The notes under the pieces were generated by a model. It was not told the DNA's origin, did not search any database, and worked only from the letters and a program-made list of their open reading frames with translations. Source: Lingula anatina (Eukaryota; Animalia; Brachiopoda). From it: a stretch of DNA of 64,000 bases. Position numbers and translations under genes: made by a program. The stretch lies in the NCBI GenBank assembly GCA_051362555.1, contig CM120640.1:36847967-36911966 (forward strand). Reading direction: 5' to 3'. Of this stretch, positions 3,001-58,999 are shown one piece after another (the stretch's first letter is position 1; each line of letters opens with the position of its first letter).

Positions 3001-6000
3001 TAATGCAGTGTACAAGGTAATGGGGTAACCTGTAATCAATACATGCTATACACTATGCTATGATTGGTAGAGGTCTATAGGATAATCATGCAAGGATGCC
3101 AACTCTACATCCTAAAATGCTGATATCTTTTGCTAGACATGTTATCAACAATAGAACAACACCTGAAATAAAAAGGAATTAATTCTGAAAAATGGGTAAA
3201 ATACATGTAAATGTGTAGAGCTGGCAACCCTGAGTAGCTATACGTAGATCAGGTCTGGGGTGATAGTTGTACATGGAGAACATGCATATTGAAATATGCC
3301 TAAATATGCTACTGTCTAGCAAGTATGGAGAGCACCCTATGTCCAGACATATAGTGCCTACCCTTTGCTGTTGAGCTTTTTGAATGGTTGTGATCTGCTG
3401 AGCAACCACTGATAACACCTCAATGTCGATACGGTTGAACTCATCAAAACATGCCCACGCCCCAGCACTGGAAGTAGCACACCACAGAGAAACATAATCC
3501 AAGTGCAGTGCTCAAAACACAACACTTTTGTGCAAAAATTAATATTTTTTCTTTCAACACAAGGCTTTCTGAAATATGAGCAATTCTAAACAACATACCA
3601 TTTCAAAATTACTTCATAAATGAAAAATAAGTAAAGTTTAGGAAAAAAAGGTGGTGGAAATCAATATAAATTGCAAGCAAACCCCATGTACTCCAGTATG
3701 GTTTACGATACACAGTTTTGAATAGGGAATCCCAAATGCGACATACATTAATACAAACATACATTCAAACAAGTACCCAGTTTTTGCATATCCACAAATA
3801 GAAAATGCTTACATAAAATCAACCATATTTAAAATCTAATACGTAGCAATCTTTAGATCAATTAAATTACTTTTGTCAAACAAAATTTTGAGAAGCAAAA
3901 ATGAACCATGAACTTTTAAAGAATCACATGCTTCTGTCTATATGAACTATCAGCAGTCAGTCTATTATTTTCATCTAATCACCTTGCCAATCCTTTGAAG
4001 AATTTCCCCATAGCCATGAAGTCAAGCTGGTCAGAGCAGTTGAAGACCACACACTGAATGGCAAAAGCCTTGGCCAGATCCTTGGTGGTCTCTGTCTTCC
4101 CTGTCCCTGCAGGCCCAGCAGGGGCACCACCAAACTTGAGATGGAGGGCTCCAGTCAGAGTCAGGTAACATCTGAAATGGTTACACATTAGTTTGAATGT
4201 AGACACATATTTTTACCACCTGTATATGGAATCTCCACAGAATGCATATCCAGGTACAAGAACACTAAACAAATGAATAAATGGAAATAAATAAATAAAT
4301 AAATGAATAAATAAAATCATAAAAATAAATAAATAAATAATCTCATCACCATACCGATCAGTCAGTGGTGTAATAACCAAGCGCCCTGTGTTCCCCAGAT
4401 ATTCATAGCCGTACAAAAACTGGGCATTCACAGCCCGTGTGTACATGTTGTCATCTTCCAACCAGTAGTATCTGGAAACAGTACAAATATGAACATCACT
4501 TTCAAGGGCATTGTGCATAAGCATTATTACGAAAAAAAAGAAGAGATAACTTGCAATACATATTCTTCCATGAATTAAATCAAATCAATTACAACTTACA
4601 ATTAATAATAATATGTTATTTCAACTTTGATTAAGCATGTTTGAAGAAAACCTTCACCACCAAATCATTCAGTAACATCATGGGGTTTACGTAGGATTAA
4701 ATTTCATTTAGCTGAAAAGCTGGATAATCTTAAGCAATTTTTAATGAGATTAGTGATATCTCTTGCAAAACAGTAAAACATTTCACATTTTCCCAACCAA
4801 ATTAGAACAACCTTAGCATTTGGATAAGATTCTCTATACTAGGGTAAGCCAAGCTATCTTAACCTTTTGGTTCAGTTTTTCCATACCTCAACTGGCTGAT
4901 CCATTCAAAATCATTGACATTTTCCACTTTCTCTTTGACCATGTTTGCTACCACATCCCTGGCGTGGACCTCAATGACAATGAGAGCAGACAACACCTGG
5001 ATTCCAATACGTGTCAATGTCCCTCCTGTCACCAGGTTACGCAGGTCATCAAGCTGTGAAAACAGAAAAGAATCTTTGACACTGATGGCGAATAAGTGAC
5101 TAAAAATGCTGATCAATCAAAATGAAAGACCATACAGAAAAATGTGCATATGTAAAGTGATGTGAAGTGTGCACTAAGAAAAAAAAAAAAAAAAACAGAT
5201 GCATATCTTTTAATCTTTCTTCTTTTTAATAACTTTTTTGTTGAATTCTGGAAATATTTACAACTACATGTGTGTGCATGTCCCCCATTTACCTGACTTA
5301 GCAAGTTTTGAAACAGTCCAGGCAGATCTTTTCTCTCCAGTGCTGCTGACACCTCAGAAGTCCAGAATGTCTGACAGCCAGCTATGACAACCTGGCCAGG
5401 CCACTTGACTACCCACTCTGTCCTCGGGATCTGAAGAGAACACATCCAATCCAATTTTCTTATTAGTCTTATTCCTATCATATGGTATTATCTTTCTGTC
5501 TGTCAGAAAATATATGCTCGATATAAATAATAAAAAAATAAAACAAATAAAGGTCTCTGAAATCACATGATATTTTCTTTCTGTCTGTCGGAAAATATAT
5601 ACTCTTAACATAAATAATAAATAAATACATAAAATAAATACAGCTCTTACCTTTTCATAATCTTCCAAAGCATCTTTGATGATAAATCTGAGACTCTGCA
5701 TCATGACTCTCTCCACCTCCAGTAACCAGTCCTCCACATTGCCAGTGGGATACAGGGACTCCTTGAAACTCACTGATTCTCCTTCTCCAGAGTACATAGT
5801 CGTGATCTTCAGATCATCCTCAAATTTGAGCTGGAAAAACAAAAAAAAGCATGGTGGTGAAATAACAGAATTGTTAAAATAAATGCAATAATTTAAAGAG
5901 AACCTTTTGTGTAGATGGTTGATACCACCTTTTTCATCATATTATTCACTTCTTTGGAATTTTGAACATAATACAAATAGTGAATAGTTTCTAGAATGAC

Positions 6001-9000
6001 ATGTTTTCTACATTTGAAAACTTAAAAAAAAATTCTTTTTAATCATCAATACACGAGATATAAAGAAAAACCTGTTTCACATTATAGGTAAACAGTCTGC
6101 CATTTCTCACCTTGGCAATATTCTCAAAGCACTTTCTAAGATGAGGCTGTACAGCTGTAGGATCTTTGGTCTGAGAGAGAATCTCCAGCAGTTCATCATC
6201 AGACAAGAAGTAGAAGCGGGGGAAAGAATTTCTCTTGGTCTCCAGGTACTCACTCAGACCCTTCTGGACCTGCTCCAACAGTTTGTTACACTCCTTCAAG
6301 TTGTCTAACAGGCGGGCGTCAGGGCACAGTGAGATCACCTATAGAAATATAGAAGTGACATTCTTCAAATCTAAATAGTTGACTGATTATAAGCAGGAAT
6401 TGAATGTTGAAAGACAACTTAAATGTTATAATCTCCATTGTTTACATACTATATACCACACGGCTTTCAAGAAGCCAAGATCGAAGAAAATGGCAGCTAC
6501 ATAAGACCAGACAAAATAAAAATGTGCTTACCAAAAATAACACAATACACATACAAGCATAAGAACACACCAGTGTGCACATAGGACACTGGGACTAACA
6601 ATTTATACACATCTGTGCATGCATACACAAACCCTCACGCATAAATCCATACACGCACCTAAAATACAGAAACCGCTTTAACTATTAACATTTGTTCTGT
6701 ATCATAGCTTTGGGGCAGGATTTAATGTGGCAGAACATGAACAGGGTCTCAGGCTTACCTGTGGGTTGTCCCGTGCCTGCTTCATCAGCTTCCTCCAGAT
6801 TCTCTCCATGGTTTGATACCTCTTGCTCTCCACTGGCAACTGGCGGTTGATGTCCTCTGAGCTGAAGATGGGCTCCAAGTACAGCCAGGACCTCTGGCAC
6901 AACAGCCACTCATCAAGGACATCCTATCAAACACAAAACATGCAATCACCTATAGTTTCGTCTGCATGTTTGCTTGATGTTAAGCTATAACCAACGACCA
7001 GATATAACTCACATTTGAAGCCACAGAGAGTCAAATCATGTTCACTGCTTACAATACACTTGTAAGATACATACTTGTCAGCTGAAAGATTTTTTAAAAT
7101 CCCCAAGCAGCAAATCTGACAAAGAATACAAAATTTAAATGTTTATTCAAAATTGTTTTCTTATCCTCAACCAACTGCAATTGTTATACGGTGTATATAT
7201 TGCTTCATAGCTTACCTGAGTTGTTCTTAGTTTACTTTCCCATGTACTGATTCTCTCCTCAAAAGGTTTCTTGAATGGGGAGAAAGACATGCTCTGGGTC
7301 ATGACAATGTGATCATCCAAAAGCTGTGAGATTTCTTCTGATATTTTCACAATGTAGGTGCCCGTATCTTTATATGGCATCACTTCAAACAGCACTGGTG
7401 CCCATTCACCTTCCATCTTGTCAAGAGCCTGATAAATAGAAGTAAAAATTGTGATTTACTATAACATTCAGCTCAAGGTTCCATCCTCAGATATAATTAT
7501 TGCATGTGTAGAACATAGTCCATCTTTTTTTCCCCGCCATACAAAAAGCAGGAAAAATAATAGGAATTTAGCTCAATAAAGAGGAAGCTACTTAAAAAAC
7601 ATATTATAACAAATCTTTACAAAAGCTGATCAAAATAAGGACAATACAGTGCATTTTAAATAAATAAATTAATAATCCATCATTCACTTAAACATAAAAC
7701 CATATTTATTCAGAAGTTTACCTGTTCAATGGAGTATTCCTTCCCTGCTACCTCTGCCACCTTACTAATCTTTTCAATGTGATCTTGCAGTCTCATCTCC
7801 AGACACTTGGAGAAGGTCAGGGACTGTTTTGGACGCACTGGGAAACCAAGGTCATTTGACAGCTGCATACAGAAGAAAAATAGAACTGTCAATGAATGTG
7901 ATTATTATTGACTATGGAAGGCGAAATTATAAACAAGGGTTACAAAAGAAAATATGTAAAATTTAACTTTTAATGTGTATTTAATATCTAAAAGAAAGAA
8001 ATGGTCGAATGAATTTTTCAAACACTCCAACAGAACTAAGTTTGCACTTCAATCTGTCAAAAGAATTTAGCATTCCTTGCCTTCCCCTCTTCTTAATTAA
8101 AAGAAACTGTACCTAAATAAGGTTCTACTGACCTGCTCCCAATGCCTGTTCCTCATGCCTGGGTTTCTCAAGCCTTGGATAAGAGGGATATAAGGCCTGA
8201 ACTCTTCTATCATGCCTTTCACCTCTACTGCTACTTGCTGCACACCTGTAATCAGAAGATACACACAAATCAACCAGTGTCATTGGCATCTTAGCATTTC
8301 TATTACACAGATATACATTTGTAAGTATCTTGTGAGCATTACTGGCATTGCCTTAGTTCTTCTGCAAAACCATAAAATTTAGAAAAAAATCAACAAAGCT
8401 GAAACTTTGATGATATCAGTGGGGTTTGGAAATTAAAAATATACTGCACATATTATGTCATCCTTAACTGTCAATTCTATCCCATGTCTACTGTAAGTTT
8501 ATGACCATATCTCTGCAATGAGAAGCTATTTTCAAATTAAAAGATCCTACTGGTATTGAACGATCACTCCACCCTCAGGTCTGTGATGGCCATTTACAGA
8601 AAAAAAGGCGGGATTGCAAATTACAACTTAAAATTCAAACTAAAAGGCAATAACTTAACCTGCCTAAATATCTGGGAAAATATTTGAAGTTTTAAAGGGG
8701 CATGTGTATAACATCAGTTCTGCTAACTACAGGAAAATTGTGCAGGGGTTCTTGTGTATGTGTGTGCACATGTGCACATATCTAATACAGCATAACACAC
8801 AAATTGGACATCTTGGAAATGCATGCATTATACCCCGGCCATATAATAAAACATTAAAGGACAACATGATTGTATGAATTCAGAAACATTCAAGTATCTG
8901 TGCATCTATACAAGGGGAGTAATAAGTGCCATGGTGACCATATGATACTCACAAAACCCCCCATGTTCCTCCTTCACATATAATACTGAGTCAGCTGCAT

Positions 9001-45695: not shown

Positions 45696-48600
45696 TTACG
45701 CTGGTTTACACAGTAAATCCAACACCATGTGATCAACGTGTGGTGCATAAGACTTGACATGCTCTAAGTGAAGTATCTCTGTTTTCCACTGACCTCCATG
45801 TGTATTATGTAAAATGTCTCTGATCTGATCAGCTGTCATTACAGCCCATGTTTTCCACTGGTGTAATAACTTTTTATTACAAATTATTGATGTATTGTTT
45901 GAAGTAGCTCTTTCATCATAACCATTGTGCTGTTTAACATGCTCTCCAGTCAAACTTTTTCCTAAATGTTTTGAGCCACAAAGGCATGTGACTGGAACAG
46001 ACATTCCTGTTAAGCTGGGAGACCCAGTGTCTTTTGCTATATCCACAGAATTACACTCGTTACTTTCAGCCATGTTCTGAAGAGTGTTCTCCATTGATTT
46101 GGTGTTTTCACACCTTTGTAATCCACCAGCAATTTGAGAAATACCAAAACCTGGGCCACTTTTAGTCTTATTGCAAGGGCAGACACCTGTTGAATAACAT
46201 TGAGACCATTGCAACTGAAGATGCTCTTGTGCTGATGTTTCATTTAAGTCACCATTTCCATGTTTTCTAATAGGATTAGCTGTTTCTTTTCTAGAATCAT
46301 TCCTGTGTTCAGAAGTCTTGGTTTCAACATTGTGGTGTATATGTAGTATTCCTCCTGAGTGTGACTTCAGTGCTGCACATGCTACTGGCCATCCCTCCTC
46401 CGAGCTGGGAATCAACCCAAGGTTTACCCTGTCTGCAACACCCTTAGGACATACCTTGAACAACAGCAGATATAACATATAACAGTATAAGGTGATTGCA
46501 AATAAACTCCTGAAAACGTGTTTATCTGGGCTCACACTTGTATTTGCTTTTCAGTCAAGACTACCTTATAGAAAATACCATTCCATAAAAAGTTTTAATC
46601 TATGATCAATTGTCAAACAAAATAATTAAATACTTTACTTAAATAAAAATATCTTTGCCATATTATTCACACATTAAATATATTACTGCACTTGCAACAA
46701 CAAAAAAATATATTGCCTACTTGTCTGTTGTCTCCCTGATGAACAATACACCTCTCTGCCACTCCATTCAGATGTAGGTTCTTCCTCAATGCATCTGCTG
46801 CATCTGGATTCCACTCACAGGCATGAACCAGCCTGGCTTTGGCATGGATCAAGTATGGCAAAGTGAAGTAACCTATGCCTGGATCACGTAACAAATAATT
46901 TATTACTTTCATTGGTAAGTGTGACTGTTTTCTTCCAATCCTTGAAAAGTTACTGGTGTGATAATCTGTATGTATCAGAGCTTAGTTGAGACTTTACAAG
47001 GAAGGCAACAGTTATATCTAATCCCTTGTCTTTATTGCAACTGCAAACAGCAAAATTATAACTGCTAAATTACAACAACTTCACAGTGCTTGTGTAGGTT
47101 ATAACCAATGTGTGTAAATAGTTTAATGGCTAAATTAAAATAAAGATTAATCTATTTTCTTTTCTAATTGGAAAGACTTTATCGTTTCTGAAAACCTCAT
47201 GGTATATCCTTGGTAAAATCATTGTTTTCCCTCACATCTAAAAATCATCTCAATTGCCCAAAAAGCTTTACCTGCATATAAATCCACAACAGTCTCTCCC
47301 TCACAGTGGAAGTGAGCCACTCTTAGTTTCTCTGTAATGTTTCCTGCACTAAACATACACCTGGTAACATCATAGCTGTACCTGGAAACAACAGTCACAC
47401 AAGAATATGATACATGTAGCGAATAAATACAAACAGGGTATACAGACTTCAACTGTAACTTTCTTTTACACCCTTTTATCAAACTTTAAATTTCCTGATA
47501 TTCAGCCACTTCATGACATTTGCTACTTGTACAGCAATCTTAAGGAGTACAAACTGTGTTACTGTGTGAAATTATATTTATTTCCCTCTCAAGAAAGAAA
47601 TCCAAAAATAATGACATCTCACTTGATATGATTGTCAATGTGAGTGACCCATCCATCCTTTCCAAGCAGCAGTTCTACCTGTGGAGTCCGGAAACCATCT
47701 TGGGATATAATTGACTTCTTAGCAAGTCTTTTGGCACCAAGGATTCTTGCCACAGTCTCCCACAACTGTGGACCTGAAATCAAATATGTACACTGACCAT
47801 TACTATATGTACAAACATAATTGTTACATGCTGGTATGAATTTTTCACATCCAGATACCAAACTAAAAAGCTGATGTTTATCTAAATTGTTTAAAAACAA
47901 CTTGCAAATATATTCACTTTGAGGAAAAGTGCAAAGAAACATTACTAACATCATAGTGACACACTAATATTTAGGAATTATTTACCACAATGTCTCCAAA
48001 AATCATTTTTGAAACAATGATCTGGCAGAACCACCATGTCTCCATGCTTTTCCCAGTGTTTAGGAATATCATCTTCCCATGTTTCACTATCTCTAACCCC
48101 TGCACTCTTCTTTTCATTATTCACTATTGCCAATAGATTGCCTAATGTTTCCCGGAGATGCTCCCAAGGTGGCTTTAACAAGTCCTTTTTTGAAGGTGAA
48201 AGATTGATTACATCAAGCGTGTACTCAATAGACGCTGGTAGCCCCCCTGTGGTCAGGGTCAGCATCTTGTAAGCTTCACTGGTAATGGGAATGGCCACCA
48301 GATCTTCGTCAATCTTTTTCAGACTATACCGGCTGTCCCATAATCTGCCAATTTCCAAATGTTTCCTTTAAGAAAAATAAAATAAATCAATAAAGGATAA
48401 CTACCCCCCCCCTCCAAAAAGATGTAATAATTAAGTAGAATGTTAATTTCATAATTAAATTATTTTAATGGAGAAACAAGACTCTAACTGTTGAGAGCAG
48501 GTGATATGACTGTGAGATGTGAACCCTGTTTTTTGCCGTGCGATAGTTATGGCAAGGAAGCAAGAAAGGTCTCTGTTTCGGATTTACAAAGTAATTTTTA

Positions 48601-48831
48601 TGTCAGAAGTTGCAGTACTTACACTACAGACAATTACAGTAGCCACACAAACAAAAGTCAAGAGCATCATAATTTGAAATAATTTCACGGGTAAAAAACT
48701 AATAAACAAATGAAATATAACAGTGTCTTTCAGTCACCACCTGTCCTTTCAACTAAGGTCGTCACATACCTCACAGTTTGTGCAGATGTCTTTGGAATAA
48801 TAACAACAGGTACACCTGTGGGCGCTGACAT
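45696..48831 (-). CDS. TRMT12: tRNA wybutosine-synthesizing protein 2 (TYW2/TRMT12), 6 coding exons
   Basis: ATG 48831 MSAPTGVPVVIIPKTSAQTVR|KHLE...; motifs IPKHWEKHGDMVVL, YSYDVTRCMFSAGNITEKLRVA, VVDLYAGIGYFTLPYL, ACEWNPDA, ADRVNLGLIPSSEEGWPVAC, HVKSYAPHVDHMVLDL. Confidence 0.93.
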
Positions 48832-48950
48832 ATTGGATCTCGCGAGATTCTCTTGCTAGAGCGCCATCTATCACAGTTTAGGTTAACGTTCCTCACGAAG
48901 TGCTTTGTTTTCACGTTGGTTTGTGCTATCTTTGACTTAAGATCCCTAAA
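48832..48950. promoter_or_regulatory. 119-bp bidirectional promoter interval between the TRMT12 and G-gamma start codons
   Basis: Divergent ATGs at 48831 (-) and 48951 (+); palindrome ATCTCGCGAGAT 48837-48848 (CGCG element TCTCGCGAGA); GCGCCATCTA ~48861-48870. Confidence 0.75.
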
Positions 48951-51900
48951 ATGTCAAGCCAGGTTCAAGCCCTCCAGAAACAAGTTGAGCAGCTTCGACA
49001 TGAAGCTTCTATACGCCGCATTCCTGTGTCTCAAGCCATTCAAGAGTAAGTGAATATTTTGCCTAGATCAGATACCGATCGATTCGACTGAGTCAGTATG
49101 AGAACATCTTCAGCTAGACAGACAGGCATCAAATTTTGATAATTAAAAACACAGAGTTTCATTGGAGAATTAACCATTATCCACTTGAAGACTATAACAA
49201 ACATAGATTTCATATATGACGTAATTTCAAAGTGTTGCAGTAGAACCTCAAAGGAGGTTTTTAAAATTAATGCTTTGAATTTTAATTTAAAAGAGCTGGA
49301 TGGGTCTGGTGCCGTTTGTAAATGCATCCATGGGTGTATTTTACTTTATCTAAGCCCTCCACAATATCTGGGAATAGTAAGGTGATAGTTAATATTCAGT
49401 GTGAATACAATTCAATGAGGAACAGAGATGACGTAAGGGGTCACCACCTCCCCCATTCTTAAAAATGTTGCATGGACTGCAAACAGCATAGTTACAATTT
49501 TGTACTTGGGTTCAGTGGCCATTTGATTCTGTTCTGTTGTGGTCTTGTGATTATAAACATTTGTTTAATTAGTTGATGAACTTACAAACTGCATTAAGTT
49601 ATCTTTATAATTGTCGTAATATCATAATAATTGTCATTACTGCAATACAAAAAATAATAAATAGAGAAATAAATAAACCATAAAATAAAATTAAGATAAA
49701 TAGATAATTGAAATTAGTTATTCATTGTATATTTAACAAGTCTGTTAAATATGCCATACATCATGATACATTCATACATACAAGTGCAGGTTGTGAAACA
49801 CCAATACCACCCCCAAATGATAAAGATTGAAAATTTAAAGAAGATCCAAGGAAAATGTGTCCTTATAAGCCCATCTTCTCTTGATGATGTGGTTTGCACC
49901 CTTCCTTTGAAATTTGAAAGTCATGGATTTCAGTCACAATATTTGAAAAGGCAAAGCCCTTATTAATAATGCTTGCTGATATTCTATGGTCAACTTCTTG
50001 TACAGTATGGAAAGATTTAAGCAATATTATAGGACAACATTTTCAATGATAAGCACAAATAAAATTTTCTTCTCTCAAAGCAGCACATGTGAAATGGGTT
50101 AACAGGATGAGTAAGGCATTCTGATTATGGAACAATTGAGTCACACCACACCAGGTCATTTCAAAAAACATTATGAAAATTACACCCATAATCTCTTTGC
50201 TAAGCACACAGAATATAGAATAAAAGCACTAAAGACATGGAAATGGTAGTTCTGGTAATAGTGCTTGAAAATTCTCAGTGTTGCATACTGTACATGTGGC
50301 AGCTTTAGGTTACTTGCTCCTTTGGGACAGGCATAAAGCTGGTTGACTTTGGTCATGGAGGGTATTCGTTTATAAACTGATCTTTACCTTTGCTAGTGTT
50401 AAATGAAATATATTGTGGCTTTCTCTGACTTTCAAGAAGCACCAATGAGATTGGCAAAATTCTACCAATTGAGGTCTGTGTAAATATTGCAAGCTTTTAC
50501 CCATTTCTCATTATCAGTTGTATTTTTAGGTTCACTTATATAAGATGGACAGAAATTCTAGAAAAAATTTCAAGATAGTTTCTTTTTGCATTAAATTGAC
50601 ATTTGTTTGTTTTTTCATTACATGAAATCGTTGCAGTAGGTCTTGCAAATCATGACCTACTGGAGTTTCTGCTGACAAACTCCACTGTATTGTGCAATTT
50701 ACATACTAGCCAGTATGCTTTTTTACCTTCTGTGAATGTCAAACGAAAAGTGCCAATTTTGGACTGCTCGTTCATCTCTCTTGCATGTCTTCTATCAGCA
50801 TTTTTGCATACATATTTTCAATTTCAGAGGGTAGATGTAGGGTAGATCTAGTTCAGCATTGAAAAAGTATGTACAATAGCTTTATCATTGCTATTCTCAT
50901 CATGGGCAGAGGATGTTAGCCATATTCATCACGTGGGTTCAATGCTTACTTGGTAGATTATTGACTTGAGTGAGTGAATTATTAACTATGTTGAAAGGTT
51001 TCATTGACTACTTCAATCTTCAAAAAAGCACTTTAACTGGCCTGTTGACATAGTGTAGTGTAGGATAGTGTAAATAAGACCACAGGATAGTTACATGCTG
51101 CCTTAGTTAATTCATTTTCAGAAGCCATCAATAAAAATTGATTTATTTACTTCAAATGGGCACAGTATGTAGTCTGAATAGTGCCATTGATGAAAACCAA
51201 TGAATTGAATATTTTAAAGTGAGCTAGAGATTATTTTAAAGACTTAAGCTTCTATTCTTAATTTTTCAGTCACTCAGACTGACTGATGTGAACTTTAAAC
51301 ACAAGATGCACCATTCAGTATATTTCTAATTCTAATAAGATATTTAATTCTATTTTCAGCTTAGCAAAGTTACAAAAAAATAAATAATTAATTAAGATTT
51401 AAAGACCAACACAAATAAAGGGGCAATATTTCATATCATCTAACTAAATACTTGATATATCATTCATTAGATTAAAAAATGATTAGTTTTAGCCATTAGA
51501 AAAATATCACATTAGGGTGCACACAACACAGGTGTGTTAATGAATTTTACTTGCTGCTTTGATCCCCTTCTAACATCTGATGCTGTTAGCTTGATCAATA
51601 CTTTGATTCCAAAAACATGAAACATGTTAGTTTGCGGAAGACATCTTGACTACTCATGCATTTATCTTTGGCTTCAACACCTAAAAAAATTCCCATCCAA
51701 ATAACACTTTCGGTTTCCTAGAAAAATTGCACAGTATAGTGAACGTGTGTGTTTATGTGTGTGTTGTTGAGGAGTTGATTCTCCTGTTTTATACAATTAT
51801 TTCTATTTTTCTTGTCAGCCAACACTGATGTTTCAAATGCATGTATAGTATGGGATTGATTACACAGAAAAAAATGACTATACATGCAAAAGAAATCATT

Positions 51901-54411
51901 TGCACTAAAGATAAAATAAGACGATGAAATAACTGTAAGGCCTGTTTTAGAAGATATAATATCAATACAGTACACAGTAAGTACTGTTAAGTTTGTAAGT
52001 GTGTGAGTTGATGTTTGATCCCTTCCGGCTGATTAATGAGGTCTGATTTTTTTCTGTGTGTTTGTTGTAGTTAAACAGTATTCTGACATTGATATAAATT
52101 GCAAAAATTTTGGACTTACTTGTACTTTAAAGGTATACTGTGATGAAAAAACGGGTTAAAACTATCCGTTAGGTGCCCAAAAGTCATTTTTGAGTAATGA
52201 AAAAAAAGTTCTTACGTTTATTTAGTTTTTAAAGCCGATTTTATGCAGGTGTGAATGTAGTTTATGATACTCCCGCGTGGTGGCGCTTTAAGGCGAGTGA
52301 CGTCACTAGCGTCAAGGCTCAGAAAGCCATATTCGATTCAGCTATCCGCTTGCTAGCAGTGCAAACTAAAAGCGATACACGCAATTGATCACTACATGAT
52401 CATTTATAAATTCAAACTTTTGAAGATAGATACACAAAAGAAGATGAATTCCCCACGTGGTTATCATTTATTAACCAACAAAATACACCAAAACTATGTT
52501 AACAGTAAAGGTTTGGAAGCAGGGCAGCGAACACAGTTTTTCACACATTGCCCATCTGTCGCGTCGGCTGAACGTTCTTATCCCGACTGATAAGAGAAAG
52601 TTACCTAATACATGCAGGTGTGACAGCTAACATTATTTTTCACACCCGTGCAGTTTACCAGTGTCATTCCGGGAGAGCCAGGTCAGTGGACAAAAGGCCA
52701 AAGATATCGGACTGATAGCATCGGACACTACATTTCACACCTCTGCAACTTACCTCGCTACTTCTGCCTTACACGTGATCAGTGCAGCAGTATGTCGAGT
52801 AAAAATTTGATTCCACTATCATGTTAATATTAACGTTTTCACTAATAAAACCAAAAAATTCGACAACGTAATTCTGCTACGAACTATTTTTTGGGCTCTA
52901 GAAGCTGCTCTCTTCTTCTTGACGGCCGCATCATGCACACATCCTACAGGTAAGACTCTCGTCGGCAGCGCTCTGGCATTTACTGTCGCATTTTGGTACT
53001 CCGAAAAATCGAATATACTGGGTACAGCATCATCTTTTAGTTTTCTCCGTGCTTTTCCACCCCACAATTCAGCTCGCAGGTCACGTACGAAGCATTCCGG
53101 CTCGAAGTGGTCGCTACAGATCCTCGCGTGTTTTGACACTGTGCTGGGATTTTTTAACTTCAGAGAATTGAGCCAAATTTTACGTTTAGCGGCATCCGCA
53201 GGCAGGATATAATAGCAGATGTCTTTCTTATTGTAACCTACATTACGGCACCCGGGAGCAACACAACTTTGCGGCATTTGTTTTTCTGACACCTGGATGT
53301 TTAGTCGCCTACTGCATAGTATATACTATTACTAGTACAGCTGTGGGAAGCTACTCCACGGGTTACGTTACTAGAAACTGACCAACAGAATTTTCTCATC
53401 TAAATCTCATCTTTTCTCTCTAAAACTTAAAAAGAACAATTTTTTGACGTGGATTTATAGTTTTTATACTGTAAAAAAAGCAGTGAACGCTATGTGTTCC
53501 TAGAGCGCAGTAGGCCTTTAAACATCCCTTCTAACTTACCCCCAAATCACAAAAATTGCCATGTCCAAGCTGTACAGTTGTTCATTCCCTCTTGAGTGAC
53601 TGTGGTTATGGGAGACCAGAAAACATACTAGGCTCTTCTGAAATTTTCCCCTATATCATTATTATTCAGTATTCATTGCTAATCTTGTCTGCTGCCCATA
53701 GGGAATGATAAATGAGAACATTGGGAGAAATGAAATGAATTCTTCTGCTCATTAGTGGCCCCAATTCACCCAGGATGCACCTATAAATTGAGAAAGGCTT
53801 TAGTAAGATTTAAAGTATTTCTTTCTGGCGCATCATCTTAATCATCGAACTATCATATAACTCTAAGACTTTCCTGTTGACAGTCAAATTGAATTGATCT
53901 CCCTCTTTGGGATGCTGATTAAAGAAATCATTTTTGGGTTTAATCTGTTGAAAGATCAGATTTCTGAGGGCACAAAATTGGCTTTGGGAAACAATTTTTG
54001 CCTTTTAGAAGTTTGCTATAAAGGTGGCTTTCCGTCATAAAGTATTTTTGTCCAAATTTTTGTCATGGCTGCAAAGCAGGAAGAAATTCAAGAAATGCAG
54101 TACGAGGTGGCCCAGCTGCGCCACGAGGCAGCGTTAGAAAGATGGCCGGTATCCAAGGCCCTCAAAGAGTAAGCCTATGTTAAAAATTTCTCTTATCTGT
54201 CAAAAGCTGAGGGAGTTGTATCAACTCGAGTGAGTTTTGTGTTTGAAATACTTTGTAAGTATGTATTTTGTGTAGAATTTATTTGTGATCTTGTTATTTT
54301 TTTAGGCTTCTGACATACACAAATCAAAATGCACCCAGTGATGTGCTCTTGAATGGAATCTCACAGTCAGAAAATCCTTTCCGTGATCAGAAGAACTGCA
54401 CTATACTGTAG
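48951..54411 (+). CDS. Heterotrimeric G-protein gamma subunit, isoform a (exons 48951-49045 + 54306-54411; 66 aa)
   Basis: Exon 1a MSSQVQALQKQVEQLRHEASIRRIPVSQAIQ(E) with phase-2 donor GA|gtaagt; in frame with exon 2 LLTYTNQNAPSDVLLNGISQSENPFRDQKNCTIL*. No other NPF/CAAX exon was found by eye. Confidence 0.8.
52131..53517 (-). mobile_element. Kolobok-like DNA transposon derivative (internally deleted)
   Basis: TTAA TSD (52127-52130, 53518-53521); short imperfect TIRs AGGTATACTGTG vs AGGCCTACTGCG; CpG-rich relative to host intron; contains a THAP ORF; no DDE domain seen. Confidence 0.7.
52819..53277 (-). CDS. THAP (C2CH zinc-finger) domain ORF within the Kolobok-like element
   Basis: MPQSCVAPGCRN...ILP...KIW...ICSDHF...LKDDAVPSIF: complete C-x4-C, P, W, C-x2-H, F and AVPTIF-box signature, followed by basic KKKRAASR. 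Confidence 0.85.
   Translation of the reverse strand: MPQSCVAPGCRNVGYNKKDICYYILPADAAKRKIWLNSLKLKNPSTVSKHARICSDHFEPECFVRDLRAELWGGKARRKLKDDAVPSIFDFSEYQNATVNARALPTRVLPVGCVHDAAVKKKRAASRAQKIVRSRITLSNFLVLLVKTLILT
54017..54023 (+). promoter_or_regulatory. Candidate TATA box for G-gamma exon 1b
   Basis: TATAAAG 48 bp upstream of ATG 54065; no clear splice acceptor just before the ATG. Confidence 0.45.
54065..54411 (+). CDS. Heterotrimeric G-protein gamma subunit, isoform b (exons 54065-54168 + 54306-54411; 69 aa)
   Basis: MAAKQEEIQEMQYEVAQLRHEAALERWPVSKALK(E) with GA|gtaagc donor, a 137-nt intron, then the NPF motif and CAAX box CTIL. Typical GGL-domain pattern. Confidence 0.88.
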
Positions 54412-55959
54412 GAAACAGTCAAAATGGTGGTATGTACATGAAAACTTGTTAGTTGTTTTCATACTGATCAAACAAACATATTCTTGTACAATGTTAGAGA
54501 TATTTGGTCAAATTTTTCAAGAATATATATATGAAGGAGATTAGACGCACTAGGTATTAAATTACATTTCCATTGATTTGTAATTAGGGTACATCAAGCA
54601 GATAAGACAAAATGATCAGCAATTTTATCCTTCGTTATCAGAAAACGAGTTATATAAGTGATTTGTTAGCCATATAATGTCAGAATAGATATTTGAATAT
54701 CTCTGAAGTCATAGAGGTCCATACTGACTGCTAATGTTGGATGGGGAATGATATATGAATATTTGAGGAAAAAAATGTTGATTGCTACCTTAACACCAGT
54801 GACCTGTTTTTAAATTTCCTGAACAATGGGAGCCAGGGATTTTGTTTTAAAACCATGAATACTTTAGGCTTTGAAAAAAGTTTTATTTAAAGGAAGAAAG
54901 CCTACTACAAAAATAACACTGTTACTAGAATATTTTGTTATTGCAGAATATTTTCAACATACTTGGACTGAAATTCAGTCTTAATGAGGGTACTGCTCTG
55001 ATAAACTGTATGTTTTGTTTCTGTTTTTTTTTTTTTTTTTTTTCCTCAAAGAAAGCTTTTAATTCATGCCATTTCATCTTTATACTAGTAGTTTTTACTT
55101 TGCTAATGGCACTTATGGAGATAATCTGTTTTCAAAAATAAAATGATTTTAATATCAGTAAGATAATATTGTTTTTGTTTTCATTTCAGATATGTCTCTG
55201 GACCTCTTTGGATCATTGTCTCACTATTCTAGTGCAGTCATCTTTGTGTGAATCCGTCATCTATATACAGCAGCTTGTAAAATGGAAAGCATGAATAGCG
55301 AATTGTACATGTCTCTGAAACTCACCGGTGTTGTTGGTATAAGTGTAACAGTATATTTGTATGTATGTACAATCAAGAACTAGTATGTATAATCAATTCA
55401 TTTCATTTTTTTATGAAAACATAATCATAAAGAACTTCTGATGGAGTGAGACTATACTTGTTTAGAATGGGGACCAGCCCAGTTAGTGAATAGGGAGATA
55501 AAGCACACTGACGGATTATAGCCTGATTGATTGGATTACTTGGAACTGGAACTAGAAACTGGAATTCAACAGACTTTAATCTCTTTGAAAGTCAATATCA
55601 TTTTAAAAACTTGGAGCAAATATAAAAACCATTTGATACCAAGCATTTAAAATGTTGACTGGTTAGTTAATGCAAAATTCCTTATTCGCTAATTAAGACG
55701 CACATGGATTATCATATTCACCAAGCTTTTGGCCAGTGCTGAAAAATAGTTAAAAATTTAGAGCAACTTTTTGTATATATGCAAAAGTATATTTATATCA
55801 ATAGTCACCAACATTTGGGATTTTTTTTTAATCATGATAAACTGTTTAACATTTTATTCTAAAAATTTCAGTTTCCCTAAACTTTACATCAGTACATTAT
55901 AGTATATGTGTAAGTCAAAGAATAATGTGAGGCAATTGTCAGCTTCCCACATAAACTCG

Positions 55960-57367
55960 TTAATTAGTACCACCAGCGTCTACGCTGGCGGTACTCATGG
56001 TTTTAGTCCCGACCCGTCTCGTACGGCTCCGCCGGCTCCGCCGGCTCCGTAAGCTCCGTTGGCTCCGCAGGGTGTCGTGGGATACAAGTCACCGTTACCG
56101 CTTCTCCTCCTAGACTGCATGGGCCTGTGTGCCCATCTCTTGGATTTAAGTCACGTATAATCTCAACTTGAACCCCTGGGTATTTTTGTCTCAGTCGGTG
56201 CATTGCCCTTGGCATGATACTCGTCGAAAGGCACCCTTGTCAAAATTTTTGGAAATTCAATGCTAAATATCTCCCATACCGAAGGAATTATGGGAAAAAT
56301 TTCTACAGATGGCTGACCGAAAGTCATATGTGGAGATTTCAAATATGGCCTTGGATTTGACCTTTGACCTTTATTTCAAGGTCAAACGGGCCAAAATTTT
56401 CTAAAAATGGGAATTTTTTGCAAAAAATTTAATATTTTATGTCGATTTTCAGAAATTTTACAGATCTTACTTATAATATTATGGACAGGTGTTACCCTGA
56501 GGGTCTTCTTTCATCTTCGTGAGTTTGGGGTCAATTGGTGCATTTTCACGGGAGTAGCGGCCATTAGATGCCGACACTGAAAACTGTCTCCAATTCTGGA
56601 ACTGTTAATGATAGAGACCTCTTGTTTTTTGCATTTTGTAGAGCTTGTCAAGCGCAACACTGGAGGTGGTGTCTGTGTTTTGTTTTCGATACAGCTTAGG
56701 CATTGCACTATATATAAAAGTTCAACATCCAATATTTAGTGGTGAAAATAAAATGTGAAATACTACAAATTTAGCAGAGATACGCCCATAGTTACTATTG
56801 AACTTGAATGGGAAGACATATACTTGTAATTTAACTGTGACCTTGAAATTGGCCTCTGACCTACTTTTCACCATGAACTAAAATTTCCAGCCCTTATATC
56901 TCTTAAACTGGCAAAGATAGTTACTATTGAACTTCAATAGGAAGTCATATACTGGCTATCTAACTGTGATCCTGAAATTGGCCTTTGACCTACTTTTTAT
57001 GATGAACTGTACTTTGCATGTTTTCTGGCCTATACATCTCCAAACTTGGCAAAGAAATGCCCATAGTTACTTTTGAACTTGAATAGGCAGTCATAAACTG
57101 TGACCTTGAAATTGACCTTTGACCTACTGTTCACCATGAACTGAACTTTGAATATTTTCTTGCCCCTCATATCTTCAAAACTAGCAGAGATATGCCCAGT
57201 GTTGCCCATAGGTTTCCTCTTTTGTCAGCATATATGCAACACTGATAACACATTTCAAGGAAAACCAATAGGCCTATTGTCTAGAAAATCACTACCCATC
57301 CGAATGCGCTTACTCCAGCTGGTGGTACAATATCTGGAGGCGGTATCGCCTCTCTGATCCTCTAGTT
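55960..57367 (+). mobile_element. Second HINE-like element of the same family as 39068-41380
   Basis: Same 5' GTACCACCAGCG stem-loop, expanded GGCTCCG repeats, homologous body, ~3 degenerate satellite units (~56770-57200), same 3' GCTGGTGGTACAATA, GAGGCGGTATCGCCTC hairpin and CTAG-TT end. Confidence 0.8.
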
Positions 57368-58999
57368 AGAATAATTCTTGACCTAAAATGCCAATTTCTC
57401 ATATCAGAACTATGTCTAGAAGCTTATCTTTTCCAGAAAGACATCCTATGTTACATACTTATGTTTTCACAACTGCCTCTAATATTAGACACTTCCTGCT
57501 AACAACCATGCAGCATATAAATCTCAATGTATGCATTTTGTTTGAGTGTATATATATATATAATAGGATAGGTACATATATTTAAAGGCAAAGAGTGAAC
57601 TGCCAAAAGAAAATAATGTCCTTTCAATTGAGAAGAGCAGTAAATATGACAAGGTACCTTTGTTATAGACATTTACCTTGAGAGAAATGCAAAATAATAT
57701 AACACCTTTTCAGCTAGTTTCATGGTGCACAAAGTGATATTAGATTAATTTTTCTTTCTTTTATATGCTGAGCTGTAATCTTTAACTAAAGAGTGGTTGA
57801 GGGTGGATTTTTACCTTTTGAAATATCTTGTTTCTGCTAGATTTTGTCATGTTCAATAATGTATTTTGTATTGTGATATGTGTAAATTAAGTTTGATTTT
57901 AATTGAAAATAAATATGGGATTCCTAGATATATTCTATAATTTCAGGATTTCTAAGTATAGAAAAGACTTAAGGAAACATGGACCGTTTAAGACCTTCCC
58001 TAAAGCAAAAGCAACCAATTCCAAAATTATGTTTATTCTTTTTGACGCCCAAGTTTATACATGAATATGATATCTGAAACTCATTTGGTGAATTTCACTT
58101 CTATGATTTCAGTATGTGGTAACTTGCATTGCTTTTGGGGCAGGTCTTAATCAAGTTAAAGCAATTTGTCCGTAAAACCTAAATACAAATAGTGTGAAAT
58201 AGTTAAAAATGATATTGTCAAATCCACCCATTGTGTTAATTTCATGGGTGTTTGCAAAATTGATTATTTCGTATAAAACTAGGTTCTGATAAGAACAAGT
58301 TTGATGAAAATTTAGTTCTTATCATATTTCATGCCATAAACTAAAACCTGGAATGTCGAATTGGCCTTTTTAGTCTAAGTTTGAAATTTTAGAAAGTTAC
58401 ATTTTAGTATGATACCATTCATTTTTTTTTCTGTGAGAAGTCTCACAAGTGTATTTTATGATGAAAGGTTGGGAATTGAATGAATGAAAATCTAAATGTC
58501 ATTAGAACAGTGTATTTAAATTGTTATGTATGAGCCATTTTCCTTTGGCTTATTCCCAGTATTTCCTTTTTTTTTCAGATTCTTGAATGTATAATTGATC
58601 CTTATGGATCAGTTTCCCCCCAATCATTATCAATATTACATGTAGTAAAATATGTAGTCTTGTTTGTCATACTTTTTTCTGAATAAATGTTTTATGCATC
58701 TTATTATACGACTTCATATGAAATATCTCAACGCAGATAATAAGCATATTAACAATTTCGAAGAGAATTAAAAGTCAACAAGTTTTATTTTAAGCATAGA
58801 TAAAAACCACTGGAGAAGAAATGTTCTGTTCAATTTTGTTGTATTTGTGTGCTTGTAAAAACTTTGTTGCAAAAGCTTTAAAAGAAACATTAACATGCAA
58901 ATGTGGAAAAGCGTATTAAAGTTTAAGGTTTAACACGGTACATTTCCAAAGGGTATTTTTTACACCTGCTGACCCAGGTTTGCTGACCCCTTCTTTAGA

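What the first reader, a model, noticed from the sequence alone, without database searches (positions are those of the whole stretch)
48951..54411. One G-protein gamma gene, two homologous first exons on different promoter types, one shared CAAX exon
Seen: two diverged but homologous N-terminal exons (QALQKQVEQLRHEASIRRIPVSQAIQE vs QEMQYEVAQLRHEAALERWPVSKALKE), both ending in GA|gtaag (phase 2), 5.1 kb apart. Only one exon with NPF and CTIL* was found; the other acceptors I tested between and after them did not give an NPF/CAAX peptide. None of this appears in the ORF track. Established: the N-terminal helix coils with G-beta, and a CAAX ending in Leu predicts geranylgeranylation. Inference: partial duplication yields two G-gamma subunits with the same lipid anchor but different G-beta and effector surfaces. 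One would be constitutive (CpG/CGCG promoter shared with TRMT12) and one cell-type specific (TATA), diversifying G-beta-gamma by promoter choice rather than paralogy.
Basis: partly seen in the sequence, partly recalled or inferred. Interest (0 to 1): 0.8.

Follow-up and report, generated by a model that had tools for sequence, protein, structure and literature searches.

The report
G-gamma gene, two first exons
A lamp-shell gene for a G-protein gamma subunit carries two old, related versions of its first coding exon in front of one shared last exon; the first version is expressed, the second likely makes a rare second form of the protein, and rotifer-like sequences show the same design with both forms found spliced.

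Summary
The anatomy is real. Exon 1a (48951-49045) and exon 1b (54065-54168) are homologous G-gamma first coding exons with phase-2 donors before one shared NPF/CAAX exon (from 54306). Isoform a equals a RefSeq Lingula anatina protein, and its junction is seen in all 7 RNA runs laid. Exon 1b shows long purifying selection (codon-position identity to 1a 15/24/7 of 28; all 10 family-conserved columns kept). But no 1b junction was found: the 227 reads entering exon 2 in the four finely examined runs give the 1a consensus, and isoform b is absent from the protein collection. The TATA promoter and cell-type claims are unverified; a splice acceptor just upstream of 1b is an alternative. New here: a G-gamma gene of the other subfamily (GNG13-like, bdelloid rotifer type) has the same design at the same intron, and both junctions occur in intron-less contigs. 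Duplicated variable first exons are a known gene design (protocadherin, UGT1); I found no report for G-gamma in the searched library, and the scan's notes hold no earlier case. Verdict: new variant of a known kind; 1b probably a rare functional isoform (0.62), possibly recently dead (0.22).

The parts
48770..48831 (-). Likely first coding exon of TRMT12/TYW2, head-to-head with the G-gamma gene (ATGs 120 bases apart)
   Evidence: ATG, GT donor and in-frame join to the Pfam TYW2_N exon read from the sequence; minus-strand RNA depth over downstream exons; the junction itself not among the joints shown
48838..48847 (.). CGCG element (TCTCGCGAGA) in the shared promoter
   Evidence: only copy in the window; motif described for vertebrate bidirectional CpG promoters (PMC6192621, start of abstract); function here inferred
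48887..48950 (+). 5' UTR of isoform a; approximate start
   Evidence: reads pile up at 48887-48892 in run X9 (table 6); not a cap-specific assay
48951..49045 (+). Exon 1a coding part, N-terminal half of G-gamma, phase-2 donor
   Evidence: spliced to 54306 in 7 of 7 runs laid; product equals XP_013394616.1
52819..53277 (-). THAP-domain ORF of a probable transposon inside the long intron
   Evidence: Pfam THAP E 3e-16; reads with many differences and loose ends suggest other copies
53990..54011 (+). Candidate splice acceptor (pyrimidine tract, AG at 54007 and 54010) upstream of 1b
   Evidence: sequence only; no reads use it
54017..54022 (+). TATAAA, candidate promoter of 1b, 48 bases before its ATG
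   Evidence: sequence only; no read starts there
54065..54168 (+). Exon 1b coding part, diverged homologue of 1a, phase-2 donor
   Evidence: junction not seen
54306..54429 (+). Shared exon 2: second helix, NPF, CAAX ending in Leu, stop at 54411
54430..55189 (+). Intron in the 3' UTR, starting 18 bases after the stop
   Evidence: joint in 72, 38, 71, 84 reads; GT..AG ends

Best explanation
This is one G-gamma gene whose first coding exon exists in two homologous copies in front of one shared CAAX exon; copy 1a is spliced to that exon in all seven RNA runs examined, and copy 1b is likely a rarely used alternative first coding exon that would give a second subunit with a different N-terminal helix and the same lipid anchor. 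Shown: anatomy, splicing and expression of isoform a, and long purifying selection on 1b. Inferred: 1b arose by duplication of a 1a-like exon (1a is the orthologue-like copy), and is transcribed from its own start in a tissue, stage or rare cell type not represented in these runs; whether that start is the TATA box or a further non-coding exon is open. From established knowledge of the family: the first exon encodes the helix that coils with the G-beta N-terminus, the CAAX ending in Leu predicts geranylgeranylation, and the C-terminal residues set membrane affinity, so the two forms would share membrane behaviour and differ in the G-beta-facing and effector-facing N-terminal half (1b is more acidic, 7 vs 3 D+E, and lacks the two N-terminal serines of 1a).
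For: Selection on 1b: identity to 1a at codon positions 1/2/3 is 15/24/7 of 28, pS 0.91, pN 0.32; 10 of 14 identical residues use different codons; in 20,000 neutral-decay simulations at one replacement per site, 0.0002 kept an open frame, the GT and at least 14 identical residues. 1b keeps 10 of the 10 columns that are at least 70% conserved among 146 G-gamma segments but equals 1a in only 5 of the other 19. ATG, frame, donor and phase are intact and fit exon 2. 1a is the nearest sequence to 1b by BLOSUM score (83; next 78) and shares His17, seen in 6 of 146 segments. Precedent: in 10 of 24 metagenome loci of a rotifer-type GNG13-like gene, two 30-codon first exons with GA|GT donors precede one exon 2; L006 holds copy A joined to exon 2 and L001/L002 copy B joined to it, with 667 of 667 identical downstream bases between L006 and L002; named gene models of Rotaria, Adineta and Didymodactylos hold both copies. 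CAAX rule and C-terminal control of membrane affinity: PMC9678972, sections 3 and 9.
Against: No 54168>54306 joint in runs X9, X8, X2, X6; the 97, 45, 68 and 17 reads that enter exon 2 from outside give the 1a consensus (agreement 1, 1, 0.98, 1); depth over 1b is 0 in X8 and X6 and at most 2 in X9 and X2, from reads that begin upstream of the TATA box and look like intron of the 1a transcript. Zero of 227 puts isoform b under about 1.3% of spliced transcripts in these samples pooled. In X1, X4, X7 the 1b joint is not among the 15 of 188 joints shown, and bin depth is explained by exon 2 alone, a looser bound. Isoform b is not in the protein collection although isoform a is. No 1b-like protein of another species was found. 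A 29-column tree does not resolve 1b as sister of 1a.
Confidence: 0.62

Rival explanations
1. Exon 1b was functional for a long time but is now dead: a recently silenced alternative exon, or the head of a former tandem gene copy whose last exon was taken over by exon 1a.
For: No junction in four finely examined runs, no annotation; a THAP element lies 0.8 kb upstream and could have disturbed its promoter (inference); at 0.3 neutral replacements per site 30% of simulated copies still keep frame and donor.
Against: ATG, frame, donor and all 10 conserved columns are intact; tissues of the runs are unknown and only 6-30% of each run was read; the same design is live in the rotifer-type gene.
Confidence: 0.22
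2. Exon 1b is not a copy of 1a but the first exon of a GNG13-class gene that became joined to a GNG-class last exon, so isoform b would be a chimera of the two ancient subfamilies.
For: 1b shares the motif ERWPxSK with GNG13-class loci L008/L009; Trp at this column occurs in 1 of 146 other segments; in the best tree 1b joins the GNG13 class with weak support 77/73.
Against: 1b is 15 of 29 identical to 1a and 9 of 29 to L008; it has the GNG-type E18 and V26 and the rare His17 of 1a; a 1a+1b clade is not rejected (p-AU 0.30), 1b+L008 is close to rejected (p-AU 0.068); long branches may attract.
Confidence: 0.1
3. Exon 1b is used, but as an internal exon behind the acceptor at 54007-54011 that is spliced to exon 1a, giving an early stop and a regulatory (decay or re-initiation) transcript rather than a promoter choice.
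For: A pyrimidine tract with AG lies 54-57 bases before the ATG; decay targets are rare in RNA-seq.
Against: No read joint or loose end at this site; protein-level selection on 1b needs a translated product.
Confidence: 0.05
4. Assembly artefact or chance likeness.
For: Read alleles differ from the window at many places.
Against: Synonymous sites are saturated, so 1b is no allele of 1a; reads of two runs from two studies lie contiguously across the start of 1b; E 5e-7 within the window.
Confidence: 0.01

Closest known systems
Protostome GNG-cluster G-gamma (RefSeq XP_013394616.1 of Lingula anatina; 66-aa relatives in Lineus, Tubulanus, Pinctada, Mizuhopecten, Mya)
   Same: Isoform a is identical to the RefSeq protein; the named relatives are 66 aa and 1a-like; NPF motif and CAAX.
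   Different: No second first exon is on record for any of them in the protein collection; their genes were not available to inspect.
Tandem variable first exons spliced to constant exons (clustered protocadherins, UGT1, GCNT2, chelicerate sDscam)
   Same: Homologous first coding exons in tandem, each able to splice to a shared downstream exon (PMC1885805, PMC3325998, PMC9258826; starts of abstracts).
   Different: Only two copies, a 30-residue variable part that is half of a single small domain, and use of the second copy is not shown.
Bdelloid-rotifer GNG13-like G-gamma gene (gene models CAF1167631.1 and relatives; loci L001-L023)
   Same: Two homologous first coding exons, same GA|GT phase-2 intron position, short intron from the downstream copy (90-248 nt; 137 here), one CAAX exon.
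   Different: Other subfamily (NPW), copies 739-904 bases apart, conserved across genera, both junctions seen; public gene models often fuse the two copies into one protein.
Vertebrate G-gamma paralogues (12 GNG genes)
   Same: Diversity of G-gamma subunits with selective G-beta pairing (PMC9678972 section 3).
   Different: There diversity comes from separate genes that also differ in the C-terminal membrane-affinity part; here that part is held constant.

Membership tests
G-gamma (GGL, PF00631) | GGL domain above the curated cut-off | tested here: met
   Isoform a 70.8 bits vs cut-off 27.1; exon 1b alone 20.4 bits over profile 3-30, exon 2 alone 32.9 bits; isoform b not scanned as a whole
G-gamma (GGL, PF00631) | C-terminal NPF/NPW and CAAX | tested here: met
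   Exon 2 has NPF and ends C-T-I-L-stop
G-gamma (GGL, PF00631) | Conserved N-terminal helix residues | tested here: met
   1a and 1b both keep 10 of 10 columns at least 70% conserved among 146 segments
G-gamma (GGL, PF00631) | Stable dimer with G-beta; prenylation | not testable with these tools
GNG cluster (not GNG13) | Isoform a groups with protostome GNG-type proteins, NPF type | tested here: met
   Best hits are 66-aa spiralian proteins and, in the PDB, gamma-2; GNG13-class rows form their own branch 99/98. The labels NPF = GNG type and NPW = GNG13 type are recalled; the two subfamilies are described in bioRxiv 10.1101/2023.09.14.557824 section 14
GNG cluster (not GNG13) | Exon 1b descends from the GNG-type exon | tested here: inconclusive
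   Nearest by score is 1a; tree unresolved, 1a+1b p-AU 0.30
Variable-first-exon genes | Tandem homologous first coding exons in the same phase before shared exon(s) | tested here: met
Variable-first-exon genes | Each first exon is spliced to the shared exon | tested here: inconclusive
   Met for 1a in 7 of 7 runs; not seen for 1b in 4 runs examined finely, tissues unknown
Variable-first-exon genes | Each first exon has its own promoter | tested here: inconclusive
   Read starts at 48887-48892 for 1a; none for 1b

The most novel reading that the evidence does not exclude
Spiralian animals have at least twice, in both ancient G-gamma subfamilies (GNG in a brachiopod, GNG13-like in bdelloid rotifers), diversified G-beta-gamma by duplicating the first coding exon at the same conserved intron, swapping the G-beta-coiling half while keeping the lipid-anchor half; in the brachiopod the hidden isoform b is a subunit of a rare, perhaps sensory, cell type with its own G-beta or effector preference. 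Such pairs are natural experiments on what the variable G-gamma N-terminus does.
Probability: 0.4. Interest if true: 0.7.

Novelty: new variant of a known kind. Interest (0 to 1): 0.52.

Why it matters
A recent review lists as open whether the variable but conserved N-terminal part of G-gamma subunits has a role of its own, and attributes subtype differences mainly to the C-terminus (PMC9678972 section 9). Two isoforms that share the whole C-terminal half and differ only in the N-terminal half isolate exactly that variable. Selection has kept such pairs in two lineages, which argues that the N-terminus or the promoter matters. It also means that G-gamma counts in invertebrates (one GNG and one GNG13 in protostomes, as cited) are underestimated, and that several public rotifer gene models that fuse both first exons are probably wrong.

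Tried and rejected
No whole genome is held for this window, so other G-gamma genes of the organism could not be searched. No listed run was indexed as an RNA holder; 9 raw-read runs with the same species label were offered and 7 were laid (X3, X5 not). The wide lay was crowded by a transcribed repeat at 56-57.5 kb, so only 15 of 188 joints were shown. A more distal or hidden exon 2 was rejected. A search with exon 1b found no candidate of 23-76 aa; a mixed alignment search over 19-167 aa returned 35 proteins, none with 1b; 150 of 468 representatives were listed and none is 1b-like. The best PDB match of exon 1b is transducin gamma at E about 1: not significant, not used as evidence for a visual role. 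The ESM Atlas gave no answer for 1b. A locus scan with 1b alone was not possible, so related brachiopod genes remain unexamined. No structure or complex was predicted: no G-beta of this organism was at hand. Paper searches for G-gamma with alternative first exons or splicing found nothing relevant (Creative Commons PMC and bioRxiv only; older subscription papers are not covered). The scan's notes held nothing on this gene.
Full report
Observation. Exon 1a runs from ATG 48951 to a GA|GTAAG donor after 49045, exon 1b from ATG 54065 to a GA|GTAAG donor after 54168, and both fit in phase 2 onto an exon that starts at 54306 and ends in NPF...CTIL-stop at 54411, giving 66 and 69 residues. Within the window 1b is the only significant hit of 1a (E 5e-7, next 0.14), there is one NPF/CAAX frame on either strand, and blastn shows no further decayed copy of any of the three exons. 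Pfam places both first exons on positions 2-30 of the G-gamma profile and exon 2 on 32-69.

Identity. A search with exon 2 returned one protein, identical to isoform a and named XP_013394616.1 of Lingula anatina, a cluster of one member. The window is therefore this brachiopod or a very close relative. Named relatives from two nemerteans and three bivalves are all 66 residues long and resemble 1a, so 1a is the orthologue-like copy. Isoform b, at 69 residues inside the searched length ranges, was not found in three searches.

Expression. Nine raw RNA runs with the same species label were offered and seven were laid. The joint 49045>54306 appears in 127, 57, 60 and 95 reads of X1, X4, X7 and X9; a second joint shows a 760-base intron in the 3' UTR. 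The narrow lay over 53290-54489 (X9, X8, X2, X6; likeness from 85%) listed no joint. The reads entering 54306 from outside number 97, 45, 68 and 17 and their consensus is the end of exon 1a (agreement 1, 1, 0.98, 1; the 0.98 could hide a read or so). Depth over 1b is zero in two runs and at most 2 in the other two, from reads that begin upstream of the TATA box and stop before the donor, as intron of the 1a precursor would. Zero of 227 bounds isoform b at about 1.3% of spliced transcripts in these pooled samples. For X1, X4 and X7 the bound is looser: the joint is not among 15 of 188 shown, and the depth of the bin is accounted for by exon 2. The tissues are not known to me and 6-30% of each run was read, so this is absence in these samples, not in the animal.

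Selection on 1b. Over the last 28 codons, 1a and 1b agree at 15, 24 and 7 positions of codon positions 1, 2 and 3; pS is 0.91 (saturated) and pN 0.32; 10 of 14 identical residues use different codons. A neutrally decaying copy at one replacement per site, about half of what saturation implies, kept frame, donor and 14 identical residues in 0.0002 of 20,000 runs; indels were not modelled. So 1b was translated and selected for most of its history. This cannot exclude recent death: at 0.3 replacements per site 30% of copies still look intact.

Promoters. The TRMT12/TYW2 gene lies head-to-head: Pfam TYW2 domains on minus-strand exons, a likely first exon at 48831-48770 that joins the next in frame (this 21-residue piece alone has no Pfam hit), minus-strand RNA depth. 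Between the two ATGs, 120 bases apart, lie the window's only TCTCGCGAGA, raised CpG (o/e about 0.8 against 0.3) and a pile of read starts at 48887-48892. The motif is described for vertebrate bidirectional CpG promoters (PMC6192621; I saw the start of the abstract). For 1b there is only sequence: a TATAAA 48 bases before the ATG, a word that occurs 0.69 times per kb here, and a plausible acceptor at 54007-54011. The claim of two promoter types is thus half shown.

A parallel case. The representative search returned a Didymodactylos (bdelloid rotifer) gene model with two tandem N-terminal halves (P0013). Models of Adineta steineri, Rotaria sordida and R. socialis are built alike, and R. sordida also has one model for each first exon on the same C-terminal half. 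A metagenome scan gave 24 loci. In 10 the order is copy A, copy B, one exon 2, each copy 30 codons with a GA|GT phase-2 donor (L003/L004 and L012/L013 are near-duplicates; copy A of L005 is cut by the contig start); 2 hold A unspliced and B joined to exon 2; 1 holds A joined to exon 2; 2 hold B and exon 2 on contigs too short to reach A; 6 hold A only at contig ends; 2 are intron-less genes of another GNG13-like type; 1 is unrelated. Six long loci checked have a single NP[WF] exon. L006 (A joined) and L002 (B joined) are identical over 667 of 667 bases from the junction on, so both junctions exist for one gene. Whether these contigs come from RNA is not stated; they are unnamed and assigned to rotifers only by likeness to the named models. 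This gene is of the NPW, GNG13-like class (label recalled; subfamilies as described in bioRxiv 10.1101/2023.09.14.557824, passages and section 14 read), so the duplication is most simply independent of the brachiopod one.

Origin of 1b. By score its nearest sequence is 1a (83; 15 of 29) and the two share His17, found in 6 of 146 segments; yet 1b shares ERWPxSK with GNG13-like L008/L009 (9 of 29 overall), and that Trp occurs in 1 of 146. A tree of 38 chosen rows out of 185 on 29 columns is unresolved: its best form puts 1b beside the GNG13 class at 77/73, a 1a+1b clade is not rejected (p-AU 0.30), 1b+L008 has p-AU 0.068. I read this as duplication of a 1a-like exon with fast change and possible convergence, and keep a chimeric origin as a minor rival.

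Mechanism. Shown: one gene, two intact homologous first coding exons, one shared exon, isoform a expressed. Known from the family: CAAX ending in Leu is geranylgeranylated, beta-gamma pairing is selective, C-terminal residues set membrane affinity, and several subunits have putative N-terminal phosphorylation sites (PMC9678972; passages and sections 3 and 9 read); that the N-terminal helix coils with G-beta is recalled. Inferred: a second start site, active in a restricted cell type or stage, yields isoform b with the same anchor and a more acidic N-terminal half without the two leading serines. Nothing here shows which cells, and the faint likeness to transducin gamma (E about 1) is no evidence for photoreceptors.

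Novelty. Tandem variable first exons are a known design (starts of abstracts of PMC1885805, PMC3325998, PMC9258826). Seven searches for it in G-gamma genes found no paper, within a library that lacks most subscription papers; no supplements were read. The scan's notes show no earlier case. I rate it a new variant of a known kind, made more interesting by its recurrence in a second subfamily and less by the missing 1b transcript.

Noticed in passing
window 54430-55189: Intron in the 3' UTR of the G-gamma gene, starting 18 bases after the stop codon, spliced in all four runs; too close to the stop to be expected to trigger decay.
   Followed up: yes
window 52819-53277 (-): THAP-domain ORF (Pfam E 3e-16) in the long intron; reads from differing copies cover it, strongly in run X1, so it is probably a transcribed multi-copy transposon.
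   Followed up: partly
window 53295-53527: Inverted repeat with 21-base arms (86% complementary) around 191 bases, just upstream of the THAP ORF; reads have loose ends at its borders; may be a small element or the transposon's end.
   Followed up: no
window 52525-52754: Three diverged 22-30 base direct repeats spaced 95-99 bases downstream of the THAP ORF.
   Followed up: no
window 55800-57500: Highly transcribed repeat with many go-back joints and loose ends; swamps RNA mapping.
   Followed up: no
window 45696-48831 (-): TRMT12/TYW2 gene, multi-exon, head-to-head with the G-gamma gene across a CGCG element.
   Followed up: partly
window about 5200-6300 (-): Chance tblastn fragments read like a dynein heavy chain (label recalled, not tested).
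   Followed up: no
L001-L023; proteins P0013, P0156, P0158, P0159, P0160: Bdelloid-rotifer-type GNG13-like gene with two conserved first coding exons and one shared CAAX exon, both junctions present in intron-less contigs; several public gene models fuse both copies into one protein.
   Followed up: yes
L008:43-234, L009:133-324: Intron-less GNG13-like G-gamma sequences that share the motif ERWPxSK with exon 1b; convergence or shared origin unresolved.
   Followed up: partly
L002, L015, L016, L017, about 45-70 bases upstream of copy A: Conserved acceptor-like TTTTAG/TTTCAG followed by ATG and a nearby stop in front of rotifer copy A, suggesting an upstream non-coding exon or leader.
   Followed up: no
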